A DNA stretch of 45,162 nt from a virus. Lineage: Duplodnaviria > Caudoviricetes. A program made the position numbers and the translations under genes. The notes under the pieces are model-generated. The model ran no database searches and was not told where the DNA came from. It was given only the letters and a program-made list of their open reading frames with translations. This document shows positions 12,306 through 37,699 of the stretch, one piece after another; position 1 is the stretch's first letter; each line of letters opens with the position of its first letter. The stretch is taken from positions 1-45,162 of the IMG/VR virus record IMGVR_UViG_3300020045_008887; one strand, 5' to 3'.

Positions 12306-12395
12306 ATAATTTTTATACGGTTAAAACGCTTAACTGTCGTTTTTATCTCTGATTATGAAATAGTTAATAAAAACGTGCGTTTATTTGATAGTTAG
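12306..12395 (+). repeat. 90-bp repeat copy 1; candidate attI-like site heading the cassette array
   Basis: 86/90 identical to 27895-27984. Identity stops right after GTTAG (GTT at 12391), the first cassette boundary. Confidence 0.65.
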
Positions 12396-12401
12396 TGGCA
12401 A

Positions 12402-12710
12402 TTAAAAGCCACGATTAATCTGCTGTTCCATAATTCGCATTATTTCCTTTGTTAACCGTTCTGGAAACATAGATGATGTCCACGCTGCTCCAAATGATTC
12501 AGGAGCGTATTCGTGTAAATTTGATGATATTGCATCCATTATACTGTCATGTAATGGCGAATATTCTGAATCTCTTTTTTCATTAGACTCTCTCAAACCT
12601 TTATATTTATTAAGCAACCAATCTGGGGAAATAGGTTTGAAATGATTAACTTCCACTAACACACGGTTAGCGCAATTGCCGTTTTCGTGGGTATTTGAAG
12701 TTTCTTCCAT
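12402..12710 (-). CDS. Cassette 1 hypothetical protein
   Basis: Stop lies 11 nt from the GTT at 12391; start codon is inside attC1. Confidence 0.7.
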   Translation of the reverse strand: MEETSNTHENGNCANRVLVEVNHFKPISPDWLLNKYKGLRESNEKRDSEYSPLHDSIMDAISSNLHEYAPESFGAAWTSSMFPERLTKEIMRIMEQQINRGF

Positions 12711-12785
12711 TTTATTAAAGTATTTATAGTTTGATAAATTTGTGCTTTTAAGTCGGCAACTTCGCCAACCGTCACCGTTAACTGC
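12653..12785 (+). repeat. attC-like site 1
   Basis: CCACTAAC (complement of GTTAGTGG at 12391); arms CGGTTAGCGCAATTGCCG / CGGCAACTTCGCCAACCG; next core GTTAACTGC at 12777. Confidence 0.8.
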
Positions 12786-12789
12786 AAGG

Positions 12790-12963
12790 CTAAAGACCCG
12801 CTTCGTTATCAGTTCGTTTCTTAATTGTTTTATTCATTGCTTTTAATAAATCATCAATAAAAGGCTGATGAATCTTTGGTATTTTATTTTTGCGAACTGT
12901 TTGGCGTGAGCCGGAAAGCATCCGGCTCAATTCGCCCCAGTTTAAAAGTTCTTTAGCATCCAT
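12790..12963 (-). CDS. Cassette 2, 57-aa possible HTH protein
   Basis: Translated by hand: MDAKELLNWGELSRMLSGSRQTVRKNKIPK...; stop 13 nt from the GTT at 12777. Confidence 0.6.
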   Translation of the reverse strand: MDAKELLNWGELSRMLSGSRQTVRKNKIPKIHQPFIDDLLKAMNKTIKKRTDNEAGL

Positions 12964-13124
12964 TATTTTTTTGCTAAAATTGTGCGTTCTAAACTGTAAA
13001 TGTCATCTTCGTGTTCTACTTCTACGGCTTCAATAGCTGTTTCAGTTTCGTTTAAAATTTCAATGGCTTCGTTTGCGTTTTTTGCTTTAATGTAGCCGTC
13101 TGAGGTTGTTACATAGTGTTTCAT
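12963..13124 (-). CDS. Cassette 2, 53-aa acidic protein
   Basis: Translated by hand: MKHYVTTSDGYIKAKNANEAIEIL...; TAATG stop/start overlap with the next gene. Confidence 0.6.
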   Translation of the reverse strand: MKHYVTTSDGYIKAKNANEAIEILNETETAIEAVEVEHEDDIYSLERTILAKK

Positions 13125-13126
13125 AA

Positions 13127-13408
13127 TTAGATGGATTTATAAATTGTTTGGAAATTTTCACTTTTATTTTCAATCCAAAATTTAGCACTTGTTTGGGCTG
13201 ATAATTTTGCAATAATCATATCATATTGTGCTTTTACTTTTTCGTTATCCATTTTACCAGTAACCATGTTGCAAAGTCCTGAGATAACTTCTACAAAAAT
13301 ACTGGAAGCAAATTCAATTTGTTTTTCCGAGCCTTCAAAAGTTGGTATTTCAAATGAAAAAACTTCTTCGTTTGATTTGCCTAAGTTTGTTTTTACTGTT
13401 GTTTTCAT
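13127..13408 (-). CDS. Cassette 2 hypothetical protein
   Basis: Likely start is MKTT at 13408, after the AAAAAAATACAACT leader; contains FEGSEKQIEFA...SAKFWIEN. Confidence 0.7.
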   Translation of the reverse strand: MKTTVKTNLGKSNEEVFSFEIPTFEGSEKQIEFASSIFVEVISGLCNMVTGKMDNEKVKAQYDMIIAKLSAQTSAKFWIENKSENFQTIYKSI

Positions 13409-13513
13409 AGTTGTATTTTTTTTAATTGTTTGATGATGTAAATGTACAACTATTTTTTGAATTGGCAATTATATTAACCATTTATTTTCATTCTTAATAA
13501 CAAATAAAGCCCA

Positions 13514-13613
13514 GCAGTTAACACGTTGTATACGTCGGTTTTGCTGGGTAATTCCGTGTAAATTGATAGTTGTGTGCAAGCAAAACCGAACGCATACAAC
13601 AACCGTTATAACC
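13514..13613 (+). repeat. attC-like site 2
   Basis: GCAGTTAAC (complement of GTTAACTGC); arms GTTGTATACGTCGGTTTTGCT / AGCAAAACCGAACGCATACAAC; next core GTTATAACC at 13605. Confidence 0.85.
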
Positions 13614-13617
13614 AACC

Positions 13618-14454
13618 TTAAAGACCGCACAGCCCATTGCATTCTTCTATTAATTCAGGGAATAAGCTCGGATACTGTGTAAAGTCAATTTCTCTAAGTG
13701 GTTTTAAGTGTTTAGATAAAAACGTTTGCCTTTTCAAATTTGGATAGTTGCGAATTGCATCATCAAAATTACAAGCCTTTTCAAACTCATTCGGGTATTG
13801 CTTTTTAAAAACTTTCCAATAATTATCAGAATGAAAAGGGCATATTAGGCAAGCACTTTTGCCGGGTTCCCTCATTTCATTTTCACGGAACCAGTTTATT
13901 ATTTGGTCAATCCGTATTCTATTTTCAATAAGCGGATAGTAGTTTTCAATATATTTCACGGTACTATCCTTTATTCGCTCTATTTCGTCAAGGCTTATGC
14001 CTATCCATAGTCGTATTTTATTACCATTTCGTATAGTTTGTAAGTGTTTTCTAAGCGGTGCAATTTTATAATCATTTGTGCATTGGCGCATAATTAAACC
14101 ACCATTACCCGAAAGCCTTAAAGGCAATGCAGCTACACGGCTTTTTTTGCCATCCAAATAATTTAAGGTATCATCAACTATGTTGCCTGCCGAAACAATC
14201 ACTATATCAAAGTTGTATTTGTTTTTAACGTAATCTTTTAGCCATGTTACATAAGAGTAAACATAGTCAGGTTCACAACCAGTGTCACTGAATATTGCTA
14301 AATCAGGCTTGAATTTATAAGCACCTTCCAAAGCTGTTAATAGCATATAGCTACTTTGTTTACCAGCACCCAAAGAAATGACATTAATAAAAGGCTGGTT
14401 ATAACACGTGCTATATGCCAGTTGGGTTTTATCGGTATTTGAATCGTTCTGCAT
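13618..14454 (-). CDS. Cassette 3, PAPS reductase-like / PP-loop (adenine nucleotide alpha-hydrolase) protein
   Basis: SLGAGKQSS, FSDTGCE, RQCTNDYKI and KSACLICPFHS motifs, C-terminal ECNGLC; start codon is inside attC3. Confidence 0.8.
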   Translation of the reverse strand: MQNDSNTDKTQLAYSTCYNQPFINVISLGAGKQSSYMLLTALEGAYKFKPDLAIFSDTGCEPDYVYSYVTWLKDYVKNKYNFDIVIVSAGNIVDDTLNYLDGKKSRVAALPLRLSGNGGLIMRQCTNDYKIAPLRKHLQTIRNGNKIRLWIGISLDEIERIKDSTVKYIENYYPLIENRIRIDQIINWFRENEMREPGKSACLICPFHSDNYWKVFKKQYPNEFEKACNFDDAIRNYPNLKRQTFLSKHLKPLREIDFTQYPSLFPELIEECNGLCGL

Positions 14455-14531
14455 CTAATTTAGTTTAAGTGTAATTTGATAGGGCGGTGCTCTGTAATCC
14501 CAACCGGACACATAGCACCACCGTTATACGC
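14396..14531 (+). repeat. attC-like site 3
   Basis: TGGTTATAAC (complement of GTTATAACCA); arms GTGCTATATGCCAGTTGGG / CCCAACCGGACACATAGCAC; next core GTTATACGC at 14523. Confidence 0.85.
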
Positions 14532-14533
14532 AA

Positions 14534-14854
14534 TTAAGATTCTGCCAACTTTGAGATAGTTGCGATATAAGTTTCATTACATCTCGTTCTTTGGTTTTGC
14601 CAGTCGATAAACTTTTCCATAAGGTTATTATTTCCTGTACTTGAAATCATTTCTACAAGTTCGGATTCAATTTTCGATAACCTTTCAACTTGCTTTTTAT
14701 GTATTTCAATTTTAGTTTGAATTAGCTTTTCGTTCATAATTTTATTTGTTACTTTTTTACGGTGTTTTTTGAAATATCCATCTTGTGTTACCCAATCAGG
14801 GTCTTCAACTAAAATGGTATTCCCATTTCCGTCTGTTTTCTCAATCATTCTCAT
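14534..14854 (-). CDS. Cassette 4 hypothetical protein
   Basis: Stop 11 nt from the GTT at 14523. Confidence 0.65.
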   Translation of the reverse strand: MRMIEKTDGNGNTILVEDPDWVTQDGYFKKHRKKVTNKIMNEKLIQTKIEIHKKQVERLSKIESELVEMISSTGNNNLMEKFIDWQNQRTRCNETYIATISKLAES

Positions 14855-14884
14855 ATAGTTCCGATTAAAAAATTAATAATAAAA

Positions 14885-14909
14885 GCGTATACCACCATCG
14901 TTGGGCGCA
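14885..14909 (+). repeat. Collapsed attC-like site 4
   Basis: GCGTATA (partial complement of GTTATACGC) followed only 8 nt later by the core GTTGGGCGCA at 14900. Confidence 0.65.
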
Positions 14910-14911
14910 AC

Positions 14912-15112
14912 TTAAGCAAACTGCGAACCTTGCACCCATTTAGCTTTACATTGCTGTTTTAATTTATCTTTGATTTTTTCTGAACGATTCCAGTATTGCG
15001 ATTTATTACCAAAATACCATCCTTCTTCTTCGTTTTGATTTATCAAAGTTAAAATGTGAGCAATCTCACAATCTGTTAATGTTATAGTTTCTAATTTTAT
15101 CCTTCTACCCAT
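14912..15112 (-). CDS. Cassette 5 hypothetical protein
   Basis: 66 aa; stop 12 nt from the GTT at 14900. Confidence 0.6.
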   Translation of the reverse strand: MGRRIKLETITLTDCEIAHILTLINQNEEEGWYFGNKSQYWNRSEKIKDKLKQQCKAKWVQGSQFA

Positions 15113-15363
15113 CTATGTAATGTAAATTCAAGCCATTCGGCAGTTAGTTCGTTTTGGCGATTTTTAATATAAACAAGTTCCCAACCTTCACGTATTAATT
15201 CATTGAGCATATCCATTCTATTCCCGTCACGTTCGGGTAATATGCTTATTCTTGTAGTCATTAAGCATCCAACACTTTTTTCTCGATTGTGGTATTGCTT
15301 ACAAAATAAACTGCGCCCAACAACAGGTATATTCAATTGCGGTTTTTGCTTGTTATTGTTCAT
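15097..15363 (-). CDS. Cassette 5 hypothetical protein
   Basis: 88 aa; start is inside attC5 and the N-terminus KPQLNIPVVGRS is encoded by the attC arm. Confidence 0.6.
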   Translation of the reverse strand: MNNNKQKPQLNIPVVGRSLFCKQYHNREKSVGCLMTTRISILPERDGNRMDMLNELIREGWELVYIKNRQNELTAEWLEFTLHRWVEG

Positions 15364-15449
15364 TTTTATCTCGTATTTAAGTTATTACTGTTTGAAAATT
15401 TGGCGCTTCGTAGTCCGCAACTGAAATATACCTGCGGACGTTGTGTGCA
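15312..15449 (+). repeat. attC-like site 5
   Basis: TGCGCCCAAC (complement of GTTGGGCGCA); arms CAGGTATATTCAATTGCGG / CCGCAACTGAAATATACCTG; next core GTTGTGTGCA at 15440. Confidence 0.85.
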
Positions 15450-15492
15450 ATAGCCTTTTTTCGTAGCAAAGTTACTGCTTAATAAACCTTTT

Positions 15493-15657
15493 TTATTTAA
15501 TTTTTTGCCCACGCTCTTTGGTTTTTGCAAAACCATTTTGGATTAAAATCTGAATGTATCCGGAAAGGTTTTCCTTCCCGAATACTTCAATACTATCTTT
15601 TTTAGCTTTATCCTGTTGTTCTTGGGTAAGGCTTACAGTCACCTTCTTAGTCTTCAT
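15493..15657 (-). CDS. Cassette 6, 54-aa ribbon-helix-helix-like protein
   Basis: Translated by hand: MKTKKVTVSLTQEQQDKAKKDSIEVFGKENLSGYIQILIQ..., a strand-helix-helix pattern like CopG/Arc. Confidence 0.55.
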   Translation of the reverse strand: MKTKKVTVSLTQEQQDKAKKDSIEVFGKENLSGYIQILIQNGFAKTKERGQKIK

Positions 15658-16027
15658 CGTTTGGTTTGTAGCTCAACAATTCGTCTGGAGTTCCTTCAAA
15701 ATCATCAACCTTTATAATCAACTTATTGTCAATAAAGCGAACCTCGTAGTTATACTCCTGCTCATTATCTTTAGTTGTTAAATAAAACCCTCCAATTTTG
15801 GTCTTTTTTTCAGCCACATACTGCGCTGCCAAACACCCCATACCATTAGCAAAACCATCCTTCATTGTTTGTTTACCAATCCCATTAATTATTGTTTTGC
15901 CTTTTAAAAAGTTAGCTAAATCATGCCCAACGCCATCAATATAGCCATCAAATTGTTGGTACACACTTAAAATTGGTTCTTCTTTTTCAAATTCATTATA
16001 GAATTTAACAGTACTTCTTGTTCCCAT
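15647..16027 (-). CDS. Cassette 6 phage hypothetical protein
   Basis: MGTRS...YQQFDGY..GVG..L...NGMGCLAAQ; own promoter TATATTTG at 16066-16073. Confidence 0.75.
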   Translation of the reverse strand: MGTRSTVKFYNEFEKEEPILSVYQQFDGYIDGVGHDLANFLKGKTIINGIGKQTMKDGFANGMGCLAAQYVAEKKTKIGGFYLTTKDNEQEYNYEVRFIDNKLIIKVDDFEGTPDELLSYKPNDED

Positions 16028-16181
16028 TGTTTTAAAATTTAAGTTATTAATAATATTTATCGGTACAAATATAGTAAATACTTTTTAATTACAAACTATT
16101 TACTTATAAAAATAAAAATCCTCCCTAAAAAATTAAATAAAAAAGTGTTCGTACTTCGATTTAACAAAACTGGAAACTACA

Positions 16182-16260
16182 TGCACACAACACAGTATAA
16201 GTAAAAAAAACGTCTTGGTGCGTAATTGAAAGTATGTAGTTCTAATTAAGTTCATATCAT
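16182..16260 (+). repeat. Truncated attC-like site 6 (left half only)
   Basis: TGCACACAAC (complement of GTTGTGTGCA) followed by ACAGTATAAG and the internal AATTGAAAG motif; no matching right arm found. Confidence 0.6.
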
Positions 16261-16350
16261 TACTTGGCCAAGTGCCTTTTTGCCTTCAACAAGCTCTGCC
16301 GTTGAATTGGCTTCGATAATTTTATCAGTTATGCTTTCATATTAATTTTG

Positions 16351-16889: not shown

Positions 16890-16991
16890 TGCCAATTGAT
16901 GGAATTGAACCACCGACCTTTATGTAATGATTTATACAATGTTATTATTGTAAACCTATACATTAATGCTCTGCCGCTGAGCTAAATTGGC
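16890..16991 (-). ncRNA. tRNA-like RNA with an elongated anticodon arm
   Basis: Acceptor stem GCCAATT/AATTGGC, D arm TAGCTCAGCGGCAGAGC, T arm GGTGG-TTCAATT-CCATC. About 47 nt of AT-rich hairpin replace the 17-nt anticodon arm. Confidence 0.75.
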
Positions 16992-20384: not shown

Positions 20385-20453
20385 GATTATTATTTTTTAT
20401 GTAGTTTACAATAATTAACTCGTTATTTCAATTCTAATGATACATTGTGTTGT

Positions 20454-20602
20454 GGCAATTATTTTAACCAAATCTCAGGTGGATATTGTTTATTGATTAT
20501 TAAGTAGTTGCGTGTTTTAGTGTTTATTCCTGATCCCATTGGTTTATATATTTTACTAAGTTATTGATTATCAATACTTGTAGTTTGGTTAATTTAATTG
20601 CC
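20454..20602. repeat. 149-bp element A bounded by 19-bp inverted repeats
   Basis: GGCAATTATTTTAACCAAA ... TTTGGTTAATTTAATTGCC, with IHF-consensus TAAGTTATTGATT at 20557-20569; homologous to 35189-35336. Confidence 0.75.
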
Positions 20603-21445
20603 ATAATTTAAGTACTGCTTTTCACGATTAATTAACACATATTCGCCTTTCTCGTCTTTACCGGTTCGCTGCCATGATGTTTTTTTATCATTAAGCCAAA
20701 CGGCAGAATCATTAACAGCTATCTGTATCCGTTCTTTTTCTTCTTTAGTAAGGTAGGTATATTTAGATTTATTGTTTTTAGGCATCCATTCTGATTCAAA
20801 TCCAGCCCAGCTTTTTTCGACTGCTTTTTTTATGCAATCATTGGCCGTGTGTCCTGATTTTTCTATTTGGGTTTTTATAGCTTCAAATGCTATTTCGGAA
20901 TTGATACCTTTTTTCTTTTTTCTAATATCTAACCATGTTTCGACTATTTTAGCGTCAATTCCTAAATTTAGAAGTGATTTTTTAAAGTTAAATTTAGGAA
21001 TTTCAATCGGCTTTTCTTCTTCTTTACTTTCTTTTAATTCTTTATCTTCTTTAGTTGTTGTTGGCTGTCTGTTGGCTGTCTGTTGGCTGTCTGTTGGCTG
21101 CATGTTATCTGTATGTTGATTTTCTTGGTATTCTTCATAATTACAGATAGTTACTCGTGTTGTTTTTCTTAAACCTTCCAAAATTACCATGTTATCTTTT
21201 TGAAGTAAATTAAAAAATGTTCTAATTTTCTGAATTGACCACCCATTACCAAAAATATTACACCATGAGTTTAATGAGTAAATTGATTGACCTCTTTTGC
21301 ATTCTATCAACTCACCTTCAATAAGCTCTTTTTTATCTTCATAATTAACCATTATAAGCATGGTTAACCAAGCTTTTAAATAAGCATCATTTTTGAAAAT
21401 CCAATGAGTTAATATTTTTCTATGAATTTTAATCCATCCGGTCAT
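20594..21445 (-). CDS. Phage replication initiator (replisome organizer-like)
   Basis: N-terminal GWIKIHRKI...KRGQ...TRVTICNYEEYQ, internal iterons, and a C-terminal helical domain. Confidence 0.8.
   Translation of the reverse strand: MTGWIKIHRKILTHWIFKNDAYLKAWLTMLIMVNYEDKKELIEGELIECKRGQSIYSLNSWCNIFGNGWSIQKIRTFFNLLQKDNMVILEGLRKTTRVTICNYEEYQENQHTDNMQPTDSQQTANRQPTTTKEDKELKESKEEEKPIEIPKFNFKKSLLNLGIDAKIVETWLDIRKKKKGINSEIAFEAIKTQIEKSGHTANDCIKKAVEKSWAGFESEWMPKNNKSKYTYLTKEEKERIQIAVNDSAVWLNDKKTSWQRTGKDEKGEYVLINREKQYLNYGN
21059..21113. repeat. 11-bp tandem iterons; probable replication origin
   Basis: Three perfect TGTTGGCTGTC units plus two degenerate ones inside the initiator gene, next to an A/T-skewed tract (lambda O-like layout). 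Confidence 0.75.
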
Positions 21446-27713: not shown

Positions 27714-27896
27714 TTATTTAACCCTCCGTTTGAATATAAACAGGTAACTCGAATGTTCATTAGGATTTGTAAGCATTTTGCTTATTTCCAAATGAACCAA
27801 TTCCCATCCCGCTTTACCTTTTTCATTAAGGTAAACATCAAACTTATTAACTGTCAATTTATTAGCAGTCTCAACTGTCGTTTTGTATTCCCACAT
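27714..27896 (-). CDS. DUF4177-like small protein
   Basis: WEYKT...LNEKGKAGWELV...FIFKR. Confidence 0.7.
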   Translation of the reverse strand: MWEYKTTVETANKLTVNKFDVYLNEKGKAGWELVHLEISKMLTNPNEHSSYLFIFKRRVK

Positions 27897-27984
27897 AATT
27901 TTTATACGTTTAAAACGCTTAACTGTCGTTTTTATCGCTGATTATGAAATAGTTAATAAAAACGTGCGCTTATTTGGTAGTTAG
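27895..27984 (+). repeat. 90-bp repeat copy 2 (attI-like, no array follows)
   Basis: 86/90 identical to 12306-12395, ending at GTTAG (GTT at 27980). Confidence 0.7.
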
Positions 27985-29090: not shown

Positions 29091-29168
29091 AGTTGTATTT
29101 TTAAGGTTTGTTTACATCCCCCGAAGGGGATGGCTCACAATTTTTCCCGGACTGGCCACCGGCAACCA

Positions 29169-29354
29169 TTACATGTAATTTTCATAAAAAGTATCAATTT
29201 CTACTTTTTCTATTTTTGTAACCCCCCAAGTGTTTAAAATGGTTACATACTTGCGACCAATAGTTTTGATGTAGATTCCAGCGCTTACTTGATTTTCAGG
29301 TATTGCACTGTACTTTTCTTTAATCTCTGTTGATTTTTCTTTTAAAGTTTTCAT
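29169..29354 (-). CDS. Hypothetical protein
   Basis: Likely start is MKTL at 29354; the upstream in-frame extension is the repeated promoter/leader. Confidence 0.6.
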   Translation of the reverse strand: MKTLKEKSTEIKEKYSAIPENQVSAGIYIKTIGRKYVTILNTWGVTKIEKVEIDTFYENYM

Positions 29355-29648
29355 AGTTGTATTTTTTTTAATTGTTTGATGAAGTAAAGATAATACTTTA
29401 TTTTGAATTGGCAATTATATTAACCAAATATTTTATGTGTTATAAAACATATTATTTGGTGGGCAAATTGCATATATGCAAATAAATATACATATGTGAA
29501 AATAAAATACCGCCCCGGGTGCGCATCTTTGAGAGGCGTGGGCGGTAACTTTAGTTAATACTATGCACCTTCCTGCGGATAACCTTAATTTAACCTTGTT
29601 ATTTCAGGTTAACCCCGTCGGTATTTCTGGCGCTTCAACGGTATTTTG

Positions 29649-29722
29649 AGCCATCGGCAGGAATTGAACCCGCGACCCGCTGATTACAGATCAGCCGCTC
29701 TGGCCTACTGAGCTACAATGGC
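29649..29722 (-). tRNA. tRNA-Thr(TGT)
   Basis: GCCATTG/CGATGGC acceptor stem, GCTGA-TCTGTAA-TCAGC anticodon arm, GGTTCAATTCC T loop; CCA is not encoded. Confidence 0.85.
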
Positions 29723-33292: not shown

Positions 33293-35128
33293 TTAGTTAT
33301 AATTTTTCCCATAGTTAATATAAAGGTTAGTACCATCATAGGTATAGCTTATAATGTCTATGCTATTTGCAGTCGTGCTTAAAGTGACGACACCAGCCCC
33401 GCCATTGATCACTTTAGGAGTTGGAGAAATGGTTATTGTCCGGCCACCCGTCCCATCCTGGATCACGATTATATTACCTTCATCTCCATTGGTCAAATTT
33501 GATAAAGTCAAGGCGCAATTTCCGGTAAGGGTTATTTTAGCATTCGCCCCAATGTTGGTGTTCATCGTTACCGAGGCGGCATAAGTCAGCGTTTGATGTG
33601 CTTTTGTAACTTCGGGTGTAGATAAGTGTTTATTGAACTCAAATAAGTCCTTTGAACTGTTTAGTTTAATTGAACTGGTCGCATTTTCGACAAGCAAGAC
33701 ACTCGTGGTATATTTTTTAAGGTGTAAAAGGGTGTCACAGTAATCAGCTTGTGAAATTAATGGAATAGTCCTATAACCGTATGAAATAAAATTAGCCGTT
33801 ATCCCATCATTAGCATCATTTTCGCCTTGAAAATTAGTCGAATAACGCCCGGACGAATAGGAGTAAAAAGAAACAGCACTTTCGGCGGTGGTTGTTGATT
33901 GTACATTCCCTACACTATTATTTCCAGTTACTTCCAAAACGCCGCTCATAGTTATTTTTTCTGATCCGTTTGTTGTAACGAATTTCAGCAATCCTGTTTT
34001 TTCGCTTGCATCAAAAGATAAAGCACTTGTCTGGTTGTCGTAAAGTAGCCAGTTTGGGGCGGTGGTTAAACTTGAAATATCCCCACCGGCCAAAGAAATA
34101 GCATAATTTCCATTGCCATTGACTGCCCGGCAACTCATCCCTACATTAACACCTCCCGAATGAGTATCTTCTGAACGAAAATAACCACCTATTGATGCGC
34201 CAGTGTCTCCTGATGCTGAAACTTTACCTACACCGGCAACGCCTCTACCTTGGTTAGCCGCATTAGTAGATGCCACCCCGCCAACGCCTGTACCTGTATC
34301 TGAAGTTCCGGCAATTGCTTCTCCAATAGTACCAATGTTTCCCGTGTACGTGTGTCCTGTGTTACCTTTTGACGAAATAAAATTAGCAAGCGGAAAATCA
34401 GTTAAACTGGCATTTGTACCTATCAAAATAGGTTTGTTAAATAGAAACGAATTTTTAGAACTGTTAAAATTTACAGATGAAGTTGAATTTAATACTCCAA
34501 GCACTTCAGTTGTTGATTTATACAACTGCAAAATGGTATCGCAATGTAGCGAATATGCCCACATAGGTATCGTCCTGTATCCATATGATGAAAATTGCGA
34601 AACAAAACCGTCATTTCCATAATTTTCACCCCAGAAATTTACCGAAGCATTTCCTGAATTATATCCATAAAATCCTTTAGCACTTGATCCAGTCCCATAA
34701 CTATAATATGATAATGAATTACTACCAGTATTAGTTGCCTGATAAGCTCCATTACTAGTCTCGTCAATATTTATGATACCGTTTTCGAAAGTTTTTGTTT
34801 CAAAAATAGTATCTATTGTTGTTTTATAAACAATATTGGCGGTATCTAATGATGTAATTGATTGACTGTCAATTGTTATTGTTCCACCTTCAGCAATATT
34901 AATGCCTTTAACAAATAGATGCTTATTGAAAGTATAAGCATCTTGGTTGGTTCTGAATTTGACTGAATCCTGATATATTTCAATCAAAGACGAATCATTA
35001 CCGGCTTTATAAATTTGCAACAAATCCAAATACGGCAATTTGCCTATGTTCGTAGAAACAGGGACAACGCCCTGAGAAAATGCCCCAAATGAGGCTAAAA
35101 TTAAAAGTGATAAGATAAATTTTTTCAT
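33293..35128 (-). CDS. Tail fibre/adhesin-like protein with a signal peptide
   Basis: G/S/T/N-rich beta repeats and C-terminal IIVIQDGTGGRTIT...IDIISYTYDGTN; start MKKFILSLLIL at 35128. Confidence 0.65.
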   Translation of the reverse strand: MKKFILSLLILASFGAFSQGVVPVSTNIGKLPYLDLLQIYKAGNDSSLIEIYQDSVKFRTNQDAYTFNKHLFVKGINIAEGGTITIDSQSITSLDTANIVYKTTIDTIFETKTFENGIINIDETSNGAYQATNTGSNSLSYYSYGTGSSAKGFYGYNSGNASVNFWGENYGNDGFVSQFSSYGYRTIPMWAYSLHCDTILQLYKSTTEVLGVLNSTSSVNFNSSKNSFLFNKPILIGTNASLTDFPLANFISSKGNTGHTYTGNIGTIGEAIAGTSDTGTGVGGVASTNAANQGRGVAGVGKVSASGDTGASIGGYFRSEDTHSGGVNVGMSCRAVNGNGNYAISLAGGDISSLTTAPNWLLYDNQTSALSFDASEKTGLLKFVTTNGSEKITMSGVLEVTGNNSVGNVQSTTTAESAVSFYSYSSGRYSTNFQGENDANDGITANFISYGYRTIPLISQADYCDTLLHLKKYTTSVLLVENATSSIKLNSSKDLFEFNKHLSTPEVTKAHQTLTYAASVTMNTNIGANAKITLTGNCALTLSNLTNGDEGNIIVIQDGTGGRTITISPTPKVINGGAGVVTLSTTANSIDIISYTYDGTNLYINYGKNYN

Positions 35129-35188
35129 ATTATTTATATTTAACATTAATTAACTCATTATTTTGAATTGGATGGTACATTGTATATT

Positions 35189-35336
35189 GGCAAATATTTT
35201 AACCAAATGTGAAGTGGATATTGTTTGTTGATTATTAGATAGTTACGCGTTTTAGTTGTTTTTCTCGTTTTCATTGTTTTAGTTATTTGCTAAGTTGTTG
35301 ATTATTAGTGTGTTTAGTTTGGTTAATATTATTGCC
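35189..35336. repeat. 148-bp element B bounded by 19-bp inverted repeats
   Basis: GGCAAATATTTTAACCAAA ... TTTGGTTAATATTATTGCC, with IHF-consensus TAAGTTGTTGATT at 35291-35303. Confidence 0.75.
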
Positions 35337-36793: not shown

Positions 36794-37699
36794 TTAATTA
36801 TTATATGTTCGTTCCGTTAATCCTGTTGACCTATCATCTAATCCAGTTGACCTATATTCATCTTCAAATACAGGGTTAGTACCTGTAAATTCTTCATCCT
36901 CTGCAAAGTTATAGTAATTTTTCTGGGTTAATTTTATTTTTGAAGGATAAAGACAGTTATGTGTTGCTTCAAAATCCCAGCTTTCATTAGTACCGAACTC
37001 AACCCCGTTGACCCAAAATGATTCGTGGCCAATAGCCAATTCCAAAACAGTTTGTACATATTCCGGGACTAAATCGACTTGCAAAAGTCTTTGGTTTTTA
37101 GGCAATGAATATGTATTTTCAACATTGCCGTCCGTATCTTCGTACACGCTATTTTCATTACCACTCAATTTGCGTTTTATTTCACCTACAATCCTTAAGG
37201 TAGCGTTTTGAGCATCCCATATAAAAGGGTCGTTTAGCGAATCTGAACCAAACCACTCTATTTTTAGCCCCGGGCAATCTTGTTCCACGTGGAACGCTTC
37301 GCTCTCAAAAGTAAGTATAGGCTTTAAAATCTCATAACAATAAATCTGAACGTAATAATCACCGCTCAACGAATTCAAATCAATATCTGTTTGATAAAGT
37401 CTTGACCCGTAAAATTCGCTGGTAGAATCATAGCTCAAAAGCAATGTCTTTGAAAGCGTACCAATTATCGTCCCGGTACTCGAATAAAGGGTAATTGTAA
37501 ATTCTGAATAGTCAGTTCTGTATTGAAAAAATGCCGGATCGGTCTGGTCAAATGAAAAATAATATGGCTCATCAAACTGCCTATCTTGGTACTCGTAATC
37601 CCGGAAAAACCTAGTCTTTTCGGTCTGCATCTTCAAAAGATAGTCTTCTTTTCTGACAAAACTAAAAGGCGTATTCGGTAATATATTAAACTTTGCCAT
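36794..37699 (-). CDS. Tail tip/structural protein
   Basis: 301 aa, downstream of the tape measure region. Confidence 0.55.
   Translation of the reverse strand: MAKFNILPNTPFSFVRKEDYLLKMQTEKTRFFRDYEYQDRQFDEPYYFSFDQTDPAFFQYRTDYSEFTITLYSSTGTIIGTLSKTLLLSYDSTSEFYGSRLYQTDIDLNSLSGDYYVQIYCYEILKPILTFESEAFHVEQDCPGLKIEWFGSDSLNDPFIWDAQNATLRIVGEIKRKLSGNENSVYEDTDGNVENTYSLPKNQRLLQVDLVPEYVQTVLELAIGHESFWVNGVEFGTNESWDFEATHNCLYPSKIKLTQKNYYNFAEDEEFTGTNPVFEDEYRSTGLDDRSTGLTERTYNN
37281..37296. promoter_or_regulatory. parS-like palindrome 4 (inside a CDS, encodes FHVEQ)
   Basis: TGTTCCACGTGGAACG. Confidence 0.75.

What the first reader, a model, noticed from the sequence alone, without database searches (positions are those of the whole stretch)
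12402..15449. Cassette genes are antisense and start inside their own attC
Seen: cassette genes run on the minus strand and stop 11-13 nt from the GTT core in five of six cassettes (12402, 12790, 13618, 14534, 14912). Three ORFs start within the hairpin (12710, 14454, 15363), so the attC arm encodes their N-termini (NRVLVEV, YSTCYNQP, LNIPVVGRS). Six arm mismatches are A-C on the plus strand, which become G-T wobbles on the minus strand. That makes minus the better-folding 'bottom' strand and also the coding strand, the reverse of normal cassettes. Inference: a phage-specific cassette type in which attC also supplies translation initiation, and perhaps forms mRNA hairpins.
Basis: partly seen in the sequence, partly recalled or inferred. 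Interest (0 to 1): 0.85.

Follow-up and report, generated by a model that had tools for sequence, protein, structure and literature searches.

The report
Backward gene cassettes in Bacteroidota phages
This phage carries a row of six integron-like gene cassettes, at least four of which also turn up beside other neighbours in other DNA, whose genes face the opposite way to bacterial cassettes with the same hairpin sites, and three genes likely start inside their own recombination hairpin, which would let the phage express its own cassettes while leaving host-type ones silent.

Summary
Observation confirmed. Four intact attC-like hairpins sit on the plus strand only; a fifth has collapsed and a sixth is truncated. 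All cassette genes are on the minus strand. Plus is the top strand: cassettes travel with the hairpin at their gene's 5' end and change neighbours at the right-hand GTT (relatives; contigs from two wastewater studies). The better-folding minus strand is therefore normal; the gene is what is reversed. The class is widespread: 127 of 151 viral cassettes are antisense, and 29 of 34 beside host recombinases are sense. It is not strictly phage-specific (3 antisense cassettes in one host array), and only 32 of 83 antisense genes have a start inside the hairpin. For the PAPS-reductase-like gene the hairpin start is near-obligatory. The window has no integrase. Linked host and phage recombinases lack the IntI insertion, and the hairpins lack canonical extrahelical bases. 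One gene body carries many unrelated hairpin-encoded heads, which points to repeated attC replacement or cassette creation. Cultured Polaribacter phage P12002L has the same design. This scan noted the class before on other DNA; my literature searches found no description of it.

The parts
12306..12393 (+). Likely entry site (attI-like) ending at the first GTT core (12391); no hairpin
   Evidence: 96% copy at 27895-27984; contigs start at 12391; ranks 4 of 1783 GTTs with a small matrix from 7 phage entry sites, which is weak
12392..12777 (+). Cassette 1 with hairpin C1 (AAC 12658, GTT 12777)
   Evidence: Same unit, 88% identical over 12382-12792, with other neighbours in L311/L269
12402..12710 (-). 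Cassette 1 gene, 102 aa, unknown function; ATG in the C1 loop
   Evidence: only one relative found, with the same kind of head
12778..13605 (+). Cassette 2 with hairpin C2 (AAC 13520, GTT 13605); three minus-strand genes (12790-12963, 12963-13124, 13127-13408 from its first ATG) and a promoter-like leader
   Evidence: contigs from 12776; the leader 13401-13488 recurs outside any cassette at 29347 (90%) and 11729 (69%)
13606..14523 (+). Cassette 3 with hairpin C3 (AAC 14403, GTT 14523)
   Evidence: a contig covers 13601-14389
13618..14454 (-). PAPS-reductase-like gene, 278 aa; ATG in the C3 loop, about 18 residues encoded by the hairpin
   Evidence: phrog_424, E 4.7e-39 from residue 23; homologues; second ATG at codon 37
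14524..14900 (+). Cassette 4; gene 14534-14854 on minus starts in the body; its hairpin has collapsed (14885-14902), likely fusing it to cassette 5
   Evidence: sequence: the remnant matches the 14523 core and runs straight into a right-arm end
14901..15440 (+). Cassette 5 with hairpin C5 (AAC 15319, GTT 15440); genes 14912-15112 and 15097-15363 on minus
   Evidence: a contig covers 14914-15442, and loose ends fall behind 15442/15443 in 3 runs
15097..15363 (-). 88-aa gene with ATG in the C5 loop
   Evidence: the relative in L312 is conserved from residue 20, upstream of the first internal Met at 35
15441..16272 (+). Cassette 6; genes 15493-15657 and 15647-16027 on minus, promoter-like motif at 16066-16073; hairpin C6 truncated (AAC 16189, no right arm; right end approximate)
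   Evidence: the core at 15440 is complementary to 16182-16191; a contig covers 15439-16194
27895..27984 (+). Second copy of the entry-site-like sequence (GTT at 27980) with no hairpin detected behind it
   Evidence: not in the top 12 of the matrix scan

Best explanation
This is an integrase-less array of integron-like cassettes of a Bacteroidota-type family whose genes lie backwards inside otherwise normally oriented cassettes, likely moved by a host or helper-phage recombinase acting on the folded minus strand and likely expressed from the phage's own minus-strand transcription. Shown: hairpins and their polarity, gene direction, cassette boundaries at the plus-strand GTT in other DNA, and no tyrosine recombinase in this genome. 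Inferred: the recombinase is the XerA-like, insertion-less enzyme found beside such arrays in Bacteroidota chromosomes and in some phages. Because the site lies at the gene's 5' end, genes that lost their native Met at the junction use an A-rich ATG in the loop and gain a 15-25 residue hairpin-encoded head; others keep a start in the body. Phage arrays point against phage transcription, so reversed cassettes would be read and host-type cassettes would be silent; the reverse would hold in host arrays.
For: (1) Orientation. The same site family has sense genes in bacteria: 29 sense, 3 antisense, 2 unclear of 34 cassettes downstream of the recombinase in 10 genomes. Viral loci give 127 antisense, 3 sense, 21 unclear of 151. 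Phages with their own recombinase give 22 antisense, 1 sense, 1 unclear of 24. (2) Crossover. 16 of 22 gene-body families keep the hairpin and change the right neighbour. Cassette 1 matches L311 only between its two GTT cores. Contigs begin at 12391, 12776 and 15439 and leave after 15442/15443 (4 runs, 2 studies). (3) Gene reversed inside the cassette. The flanks keep the same polarity in antisense and sense cassettes: AA at +9/+10 after GTT in 64 of 88 and 25 of 37, and 0 on the other flank in both. (4) Loop starts. 32 of 83 vs 2 of 37, with A at -3 in 19 of 32 and at -12 in 25 of 32; A-3 favours initiation in Flavobacterium (PMC6847099, abstract). 77 of 116 PAPS-reductase homologues start within 9 residues of the conserved motif, where the window's copy has no Met. 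(5) Cargo is phage-like: PHROG hits for 28 of 77 antisense genes (15 DNA methyltransferases) vs 2 of 35 sense genes. Coding DNA outside viral arrays is on the cassette-gene strand in 32 of 39 left and 29 of 35 right flanks. (6) Cultured phage P12002L has the same design.
Against: No recombination, transcription or translation was measured. The recombinase is tied to the sites only by position: 10 of 25 short host loci show a site within the flank held, mostly about 1.5 kb. My detector is home-made and sometimes calls a site on the wrong strand (three such pairs seen), and orientation was called from ORF coverage. The seed patterns came from this window, so the sampling is biased to its subfamilies. 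Extra bases lie mostly on the arm next to the crossover (93 vs 18 of 249 viral sites); by the IntI rule (PMC5027507) this would favour the other strand. In 2 of 19 headed genes with a domain match (L008, L075) a body Met precedes the domain, so the loop ATG may be unused there. Loops are A-rich on that strand, and I ran no composition control for the A profile. The entry-site match is weak. The silencing benefit is inference only.
Confidence: 0.75

Rival explanations
1. Both boxes are used. Besides normal movement at the right-hand GTT, the recombinase also cuts at the gene-proximal box and swaps hairpins, and so protein heads, on a fixed gene body. The same reaction could be how native phage genes become cassettes. 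This extends the main reading.
For: Among the 14 closest PAPS-reductase homologues (83-96% identical) at least seven unrelated heads join at the same Cys-Tyr, the codons that span the box. The CYxQPF-headed form needs 6 changes on the tree and has short-headed sisters (quick tree). 6 of 22 body families carry hairpins under 62% identical, switching at or just after the AAC. Three close viral relatives show a different hairpin (L076, L077) or none (L078). Canonical sites with inverted extra bases can recombine on both strands (PMC5027507, passages).
Against: No true reciprocal product was seen: the three apparent cases were wrong-strand calls. Short-headed homologues have no DNA context and may be cassettes too. 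Homologous exchange within conserved arm sequence could give the same picture. The careful tree did not finish.
Confidence: 0.4
2. The cassettes are ordinary and the strand is misassigned: minus is the top strand, the genes are sense, and each start comes from the previous cassette's site.
For: The extra bases lie on the plus-strand right arm, which in canonical attC marks the uncut arm. Core complementarity alone does not tell the two readings apart.
Against: The same sites in the same polarity carry sense genes in host arrays. The hairpin travels with the gene on its left. The array has a plain site at its left end and hairpins at its right end. A-C outnumbers G-T 280:51 on this strand in viral and 140:19 in genome cassettes. 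Qi et al. assign the bottom strand of P12002L attC1 the same way.
Confidence: 0.05
3. These are host cassettes inserted or flipped in the wrong orientation (top-strand recombination, or inversion between the two boxes), then kept by the phage.
For: Top-strand insertion exists at low frequency (PMC5027507). Stop and start offsets of body-start cassettes roughly mirror those of sense cassettes.
Against: Wrong-way insertion would invert the hairpin too, and inversion between boxes would swap the flanks; neither is seen. The cargo is phage-like, and cassette 2 holds a leader shared with non-cassette genes of this phage.
Confidence: 0.07
4. The hairpin ORF extensions are chance read-through, and true starts lie in the body or at non-ATG codons.
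For: 51 of 83 antisense cassettes have no loop ATG open into the body; 13 of 37 sense cassettes have a loop ATG open to the box by chance; body Mets in L008 and L075.
Against: For the window's PAPS-reductase-like gene the only other candidate is a TTG inside the conserved motif. The native Met position holds Phe in headed forms. All three reading phases are used, each with its own open arm (12/11/9).
Confidence: 0.12

Closest known systems
CALINs in phage genomes, especially Polaribacter phage P12002L (Qi et al. 2023, PMC9892861; I read parts 2-4 of 7, passages and supplement part 1 of 2)
   Same: Several attC-like sites, no integrase, DNA methyltransferase cargo. In P12002L I find the same site geometry, antisense genes with a stop 11 nt from the core, and a duplicated entry sequence heading two arrays.
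   Different: In what I read the paper notes only 'divergent directions' for P12002L and describes no antisense genes or hairpin starts. Its attC1, a member of this family, was the one site of six that IntI1 did not recombine. Its 'attC2' matches the duplicated entry sequence rather than a hairpin site (my comparison).
Canonical integrons: IntI, attI, attC (Nivina et al. 2016, PMC5027507; introduction part 1 and passages)
   Same: AAC/GTT cores, imperfect hairpin, G-T excess and lower energy on the bottom strand, movement at the downstream GTT, arrays fed from a plain entry site.
   Different: Genes are antisense. The central spacer is 2 nt on one arm and 3-7 on the other. There is no extrahelical G on the far arm, and extra bases lie mostly on the crossover arm. 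Linked recombinases lack the IntI insertion and score under the TIGR02249 cut-off. Host enzymes point the same way as their arrays.
Integron-like subgroup of tyrosine recombinases (Smyshlyaev et al. 2021, PMC8138268; passages)
   Same: [quoted passage not shown]
   Different: The paper calls the insertion essential for integron function, yet here insertion-less enzymes head mobile cassette arrays. Membership of that subgroup was not tested with their profiles.

Membership tests
Integron (complete) | intI gene in the element | tested here: not met
   No PF00589 match in the 45 kb record rated complete
Integron (complete) | IntI-specific insertion in the catalytic domain of the linked recombinase | tested here: not met
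   35 residues in the L323 enzyme span 83 in VchIntI4, and it aligns continuously to XerA 4a8e; host enzymes reach at most 221.5 bits against a cut-off of 265
Integron (complete) | attI at the head of the array | tested here: inconclusive
   Duplicated plain site ending at the first core, similar ending to host and phage entry sites, but rank 4 of 1783 only
attC site | AAC and GTT cores flanking an imperfect hairpin | tested here: met
   4 intact sites vs 0.25 per shuffle
attC site | Bottom strand more stable, with G-T excess | tested here: met
attC site | Extrahelical G and T on the arm opposite the cut AAC; central spacer 5-6 nt on each arm | tested here: not met
   Extra bases on the cut arm only in 93 and on the far arm only in 18 of 249 viral sites; 34 and 9 of 147 genome sites; spacers 2 and 4-5 nt in the window
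attC site | Cassette moves with crossover at the downstream G|TT | tested here: met
   Comparative only:
attC site | Recombined as folded bottom strand by IntI | not testable with these tools
   A family member from P12002L was not recombined by IntI1 (PMC9892861)
Integron gene cassette | Promoterless gene on the top strand, site behind the gene | tested here: not met
   All genes on the bottom strand with the site in front; cassettes 2 and 6 hold promoter-like leaders
CALIN (phage) | Two or more attC-like sites without an integrase | tested here: met
   By my detector; the IntegronFinder model was not available, and Rfam gave no match here

The most novel reading that the evidence does not exclude
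Bacteroidota and their phages share a second, IntI-independent integron system. Phages mint their own cassettes from native genes, backwards, by joining a hairpin at the start codon and a core just behind the stop, and keep swapping hairpins at the gene-proximal box, so one site is at once recombination substrate, ribosome entry site and exchangeable N-terminus. Gene direction would act as a firewall between phage and host cassette pools, and cassette birth, an open question in integron biology, could be watched in a cultured phage.
Probability: 0.35. Interest if true: 0.93.

Novelty: new variant of a known kind. Interest (0 to 1): 0.8.

Why it matters
[quoted passage not shown] Here a large cassette pool has reversed genes inside normally oriented cassettes. 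One gene family occurs without a site, with a start in the body and with many hairpin-encoded heads, which offers before-and-after pairs. The linked recombinases lack the insertion thought essential for hairpin recombination, so IntI-based tools would likely miss the system. The cargo is rich in DNA methyltransferases, so shuffling would plausibly tune escape from restriction. A cultured phage (P12002L) and compact 265-aa phage enzymes make this directly testable.

Tried and rejected
Exact patterns from the entry-site repeat found nothing in viral contigs. Rfam has no family for the hairpins. The C5 hairpin and the L323 recombinase had no match among GenBank phages, and C1 gave only chance hits. 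No RNA holder was listed as such; the four runs laid are contigs and say nothing on expression. An nhmmer profile from 118 seeds found C1, C3 and C5 but not C2, so I used a structural detector. Core complementarity was rejected as a test of orientation because it is symmetric. Three pairs that looked like reciprocal crossovers at the gene-proximal box were wrong-strand calls and were dropped. The integrase in L042 is a different enzyme (26% over 172 aa to the host one) lying in an over-long unit. One search printed stale integrase fields for most rows and was redone. A single frame lock at the gene-proximal box was rejected (phases 12/11/9). The look-up by place gave nothing, as did a word look-up on hairpin replacement. 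Literature searches returned no description of antisense phage cassettes or hairpin starts. The library lacks most subscription papers, and the Dryad annotation file of Qi et al. was not seen.
Full report
Setting. The window is a 45 kb virus record rated complete. It has terminase, portal, tail and replication genes, and every ORF with a family match is on the minus strand. It has no PF00589 tyrosine recombinase. The host is probably a Bacteroidota bacterium: an arm pattern from this window hit mostly Bacteroidota and related genomes among 110 loci.

Observation. A stem detector that I wrote (AAC, 2 nt, 19-bp stem, 3-7 nt, GTT) finds four sites, all on plus, against 0.25 per shuffled window. 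They carry six A-C and no G-T mismatches on plus, and minus folds better by 1.0-3.1 kcal/mol. Five stops lie 11-13 nt from a core, and three ATGs lie in loops. Site 4 has collapsed to its two ends, and site 6 keeps only its left arm. Cassette 2 contains a leader that recurs at 29347 (90%) and 11729 (69%) outside any cassette, which suggests phage-born content. It and the motif at 16066-16073 resemble the Bacteroidota promoter consensus (recalled, not tested).

Which strand is top. The sites are near-palindromic, and core complementarity is symmetric, so I tested this by comparison. First, in 10 genomes read downstream of the linked recombinase, cassettes with this site polarity are 29 sense, 3 antisense and 2 unclear of 34. 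Second, the hairpin travels with the gene on its left. Of 46 pairs sharing a left body, 28 keep the hairpin and change the right neighbour; of 23 sharing a right neighbour, 19 differ in hairpin (pairs are not independent). By family this is 16 of 22. Cassette 1 matches L311 over 12382-12792 only. Contigs from four wastewater runs (two studies) start at 12391, 12776 and 15439 and leave after 15442/15443. So plus is top, and the G-T-rich minus strand is the usual bottom strand (PMC5027507, passages); the gene is what is reversed.

Extent. In 83 viral loci found with two arm patterns, 127 of 151 cassettes are antisense, 3 sense and 21 unclear. Genome loci give 45 sense, 16 antisense and 13 unclear of 74; some antisense genome hits look like binned phage contigs, which I did not classify. 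Eighteen viral contigs encode a compact relative of the host recombinase. In seven of them an entry site lies 36-52 nt before the enzyme's ATG, and cassettes upstream of these enzymes are 22 antisense, 1 sense and 1 unclear of 24, on the same strand as the enzyme. Antisense cassettes also occur inside host arrays (three in L317; a PAPS-reductase cassette in L161), so the class is phage-typical, not phage-exclusive. PHROG families match 28 of 77 antisense genes, 15 of them DNA methyltransferases, and 2 of 35 sense genes. Coding DNA outside viral arrays is on the cassette-gene strand in 32 of 39 left and 29 of 35 right flanks.

Not a flipped host cassette. Wrong-way insertion would invert the hairpin, and inversion between the boxes would swap the flanks. 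The flanks keep one polarity in both classes: AA at +9/+10 after the GTT in 64 of 88 antisense and 25 of 37 sense cassettes, and never on the other flank. The gene is reversed inside a normal frame. Antisense stops cluster at +13 (47 of 147) and inside the core at +1 (32 of 147).

Starts in the hairpin. A loop ATG open 150 nt into the body occurs in 32 of 83 antisense and 2 of 37 sense cassettes. All three phases are used (12/11/9), and the upstream bases are A-rich, with A at -3 in 19 of 32 (no composition control). A-3 favours initiation in Flavobacterium (PMC6847099, abstract). For the window's PAPS-reductase-like gene the domain match begins at residue 23, the next ATG is codon 37, and the only TTG lies within the conserved motif. 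77 of 116 homologues start within 9 residues of that motif, and headed forms have Phe where the Met usually sits. For cassette 5 a relative is conserved from residue 20, before the first internal Met. For cassette 1 only a same-headed relative exists, so its start is least tested. Against: two of 19 headed genes have a body Met before the domain, and most antisense genes start in the body. As RNA, C1 and C5 fold with the AUG in the large loop, while C3 folds otherwise.

Heads are exchanged. Among the 14 closest PAPS-reductase homologues at least seven unrelated heads join at the same Cys-Tyr, the codons spanning the gene-proximal box. On a quick tree this headed form needs six changes (4 of 120 rows lacking the motif were left out, and the careful search did not finish). 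Three close viral relatives have a different hairpin (L076, L077) or none (L078). Six of 22 body families carry hairpins under 62% identical (random pairs: median 37%, 95th percentile 56%), several switching at the AAC. I found no true reciprocal product. Second-box recombination, repeated cassette creation and homologous exchange all remain open.

The recombinase. Host arrays follow a co-directional tyrosine recombinase. 24 of 81 genomes sampled hold one, and 10 of 25 short loci show a site within the flank held, mostly about 1.5 kb. These enzymes and the phage ones score below the integron-integrase cut-off and lack the IntI insertion, which PMC8138268 (passage) calls essential for integron function. 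The sites are non-canonical too: the spacers are 2 and 3-7 nt, and extra bases lie mainly on the crossover arm, whereas canonical ones lie on the opposite arm (PMC5027507). That this enzyme moves the window's cassettes is inference from position.

Entry site. A 90-nt sequence ending at the first core is repeated at 27895-27984 with no hairpin behind it. Its end resembles host and phage entry sites, but a small matrix ranks it only 4 of 1783 and does not place the second copy in the top 12. I treat it as likely, not shown. P12002L likewise has one duplicated sequence at the head of two arrays.

Why backwards (inferred). Phage arrays point against phage transcription. Reversed cassettes would be read in the phage operon, and host-type cassettes, many of which encode anti-phage defence in other integrons (10.1101/2024.07.02.601686, search listing), would be silent. 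GC skew is negative on plus throughout. If that marks replication direction, the bottom strand would be the lagging template, which affects folding and excision (PMC5371416, abstract). Neither idea was tested.

Known versus new. Phage CALINs are known (PMC9892861). In the parts I read, the paper does not describe antisense genes. Its P12002L attC1 belongs to this family and was the only one of six sites that IntI1 did not recombine. My searches found no account of the class. Earlier notes of this scan report it on other DNA. I reached the orientation result and the candidate recombinase before reading them, and my phase counts do not support a single frame lock for this family. The element works like an integron array but fails the IntI, extrahelical-base and gene-orientation tests, so I file it as a new variant of a known kind. 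Interest 0.8.

Noticed in passing
window 29509-29545 (-): abiF RNA motif above the Rfam gathering score (45.7 vs 37)
   Followed up: no
window 29099-29165 (-): Weak twister-P3 ribozyme match (34.6 bits, below the 39.9 cut-off), just behind ORF 29169-29414
   Followed up: no
window 16890-16991 (-): tRNA-like sequence with about 30 extra bases in the anticodon arm, found by Rfam but not ARAGORN; tRNA-Thr at 29648-29722
   Followed up: no
window 3947, 7189, 16861, 37276: Four copies of a palindromic motif around TTCCACGTGGAA, possibly an operator or packaging signal
   Followed up: no
window 20387-20602 and 35122-35336: A long intergenic sequence repeated at 76-80% identity (families D2, D11, D16)
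   Followed up: no
window 21048-21124: Five 11-nt tandem repeats inside the replication-initiator-like gene 20594-21445, a likely origin
   Followed up: no
L274:730-2340: The host recombinase has a long N-terminal extension with a weak HARP-domain match (E 2e-4, below cut-off); it might replace the missing IntI insertion
   Followed up: no
L312:440-830: The cassette 5 gene is fused in frame behind another small phage protein through what looks like a decayed hairpin head, suggesting such peptides become fixed in phage proteins
   Followed up: partly
L183, L204, L224: A 203-bp cassette with no ORF of 35 codons on either strand recurs in Saprospiraceae arrays
   Followed up: no
L341 (NC_028924) 29175-29239 and 37200-37265: The published P12002L 'attC2' matches a duplicated entry-site-like sequence heading two arrays, not a hairpin site
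   Followed up: partly
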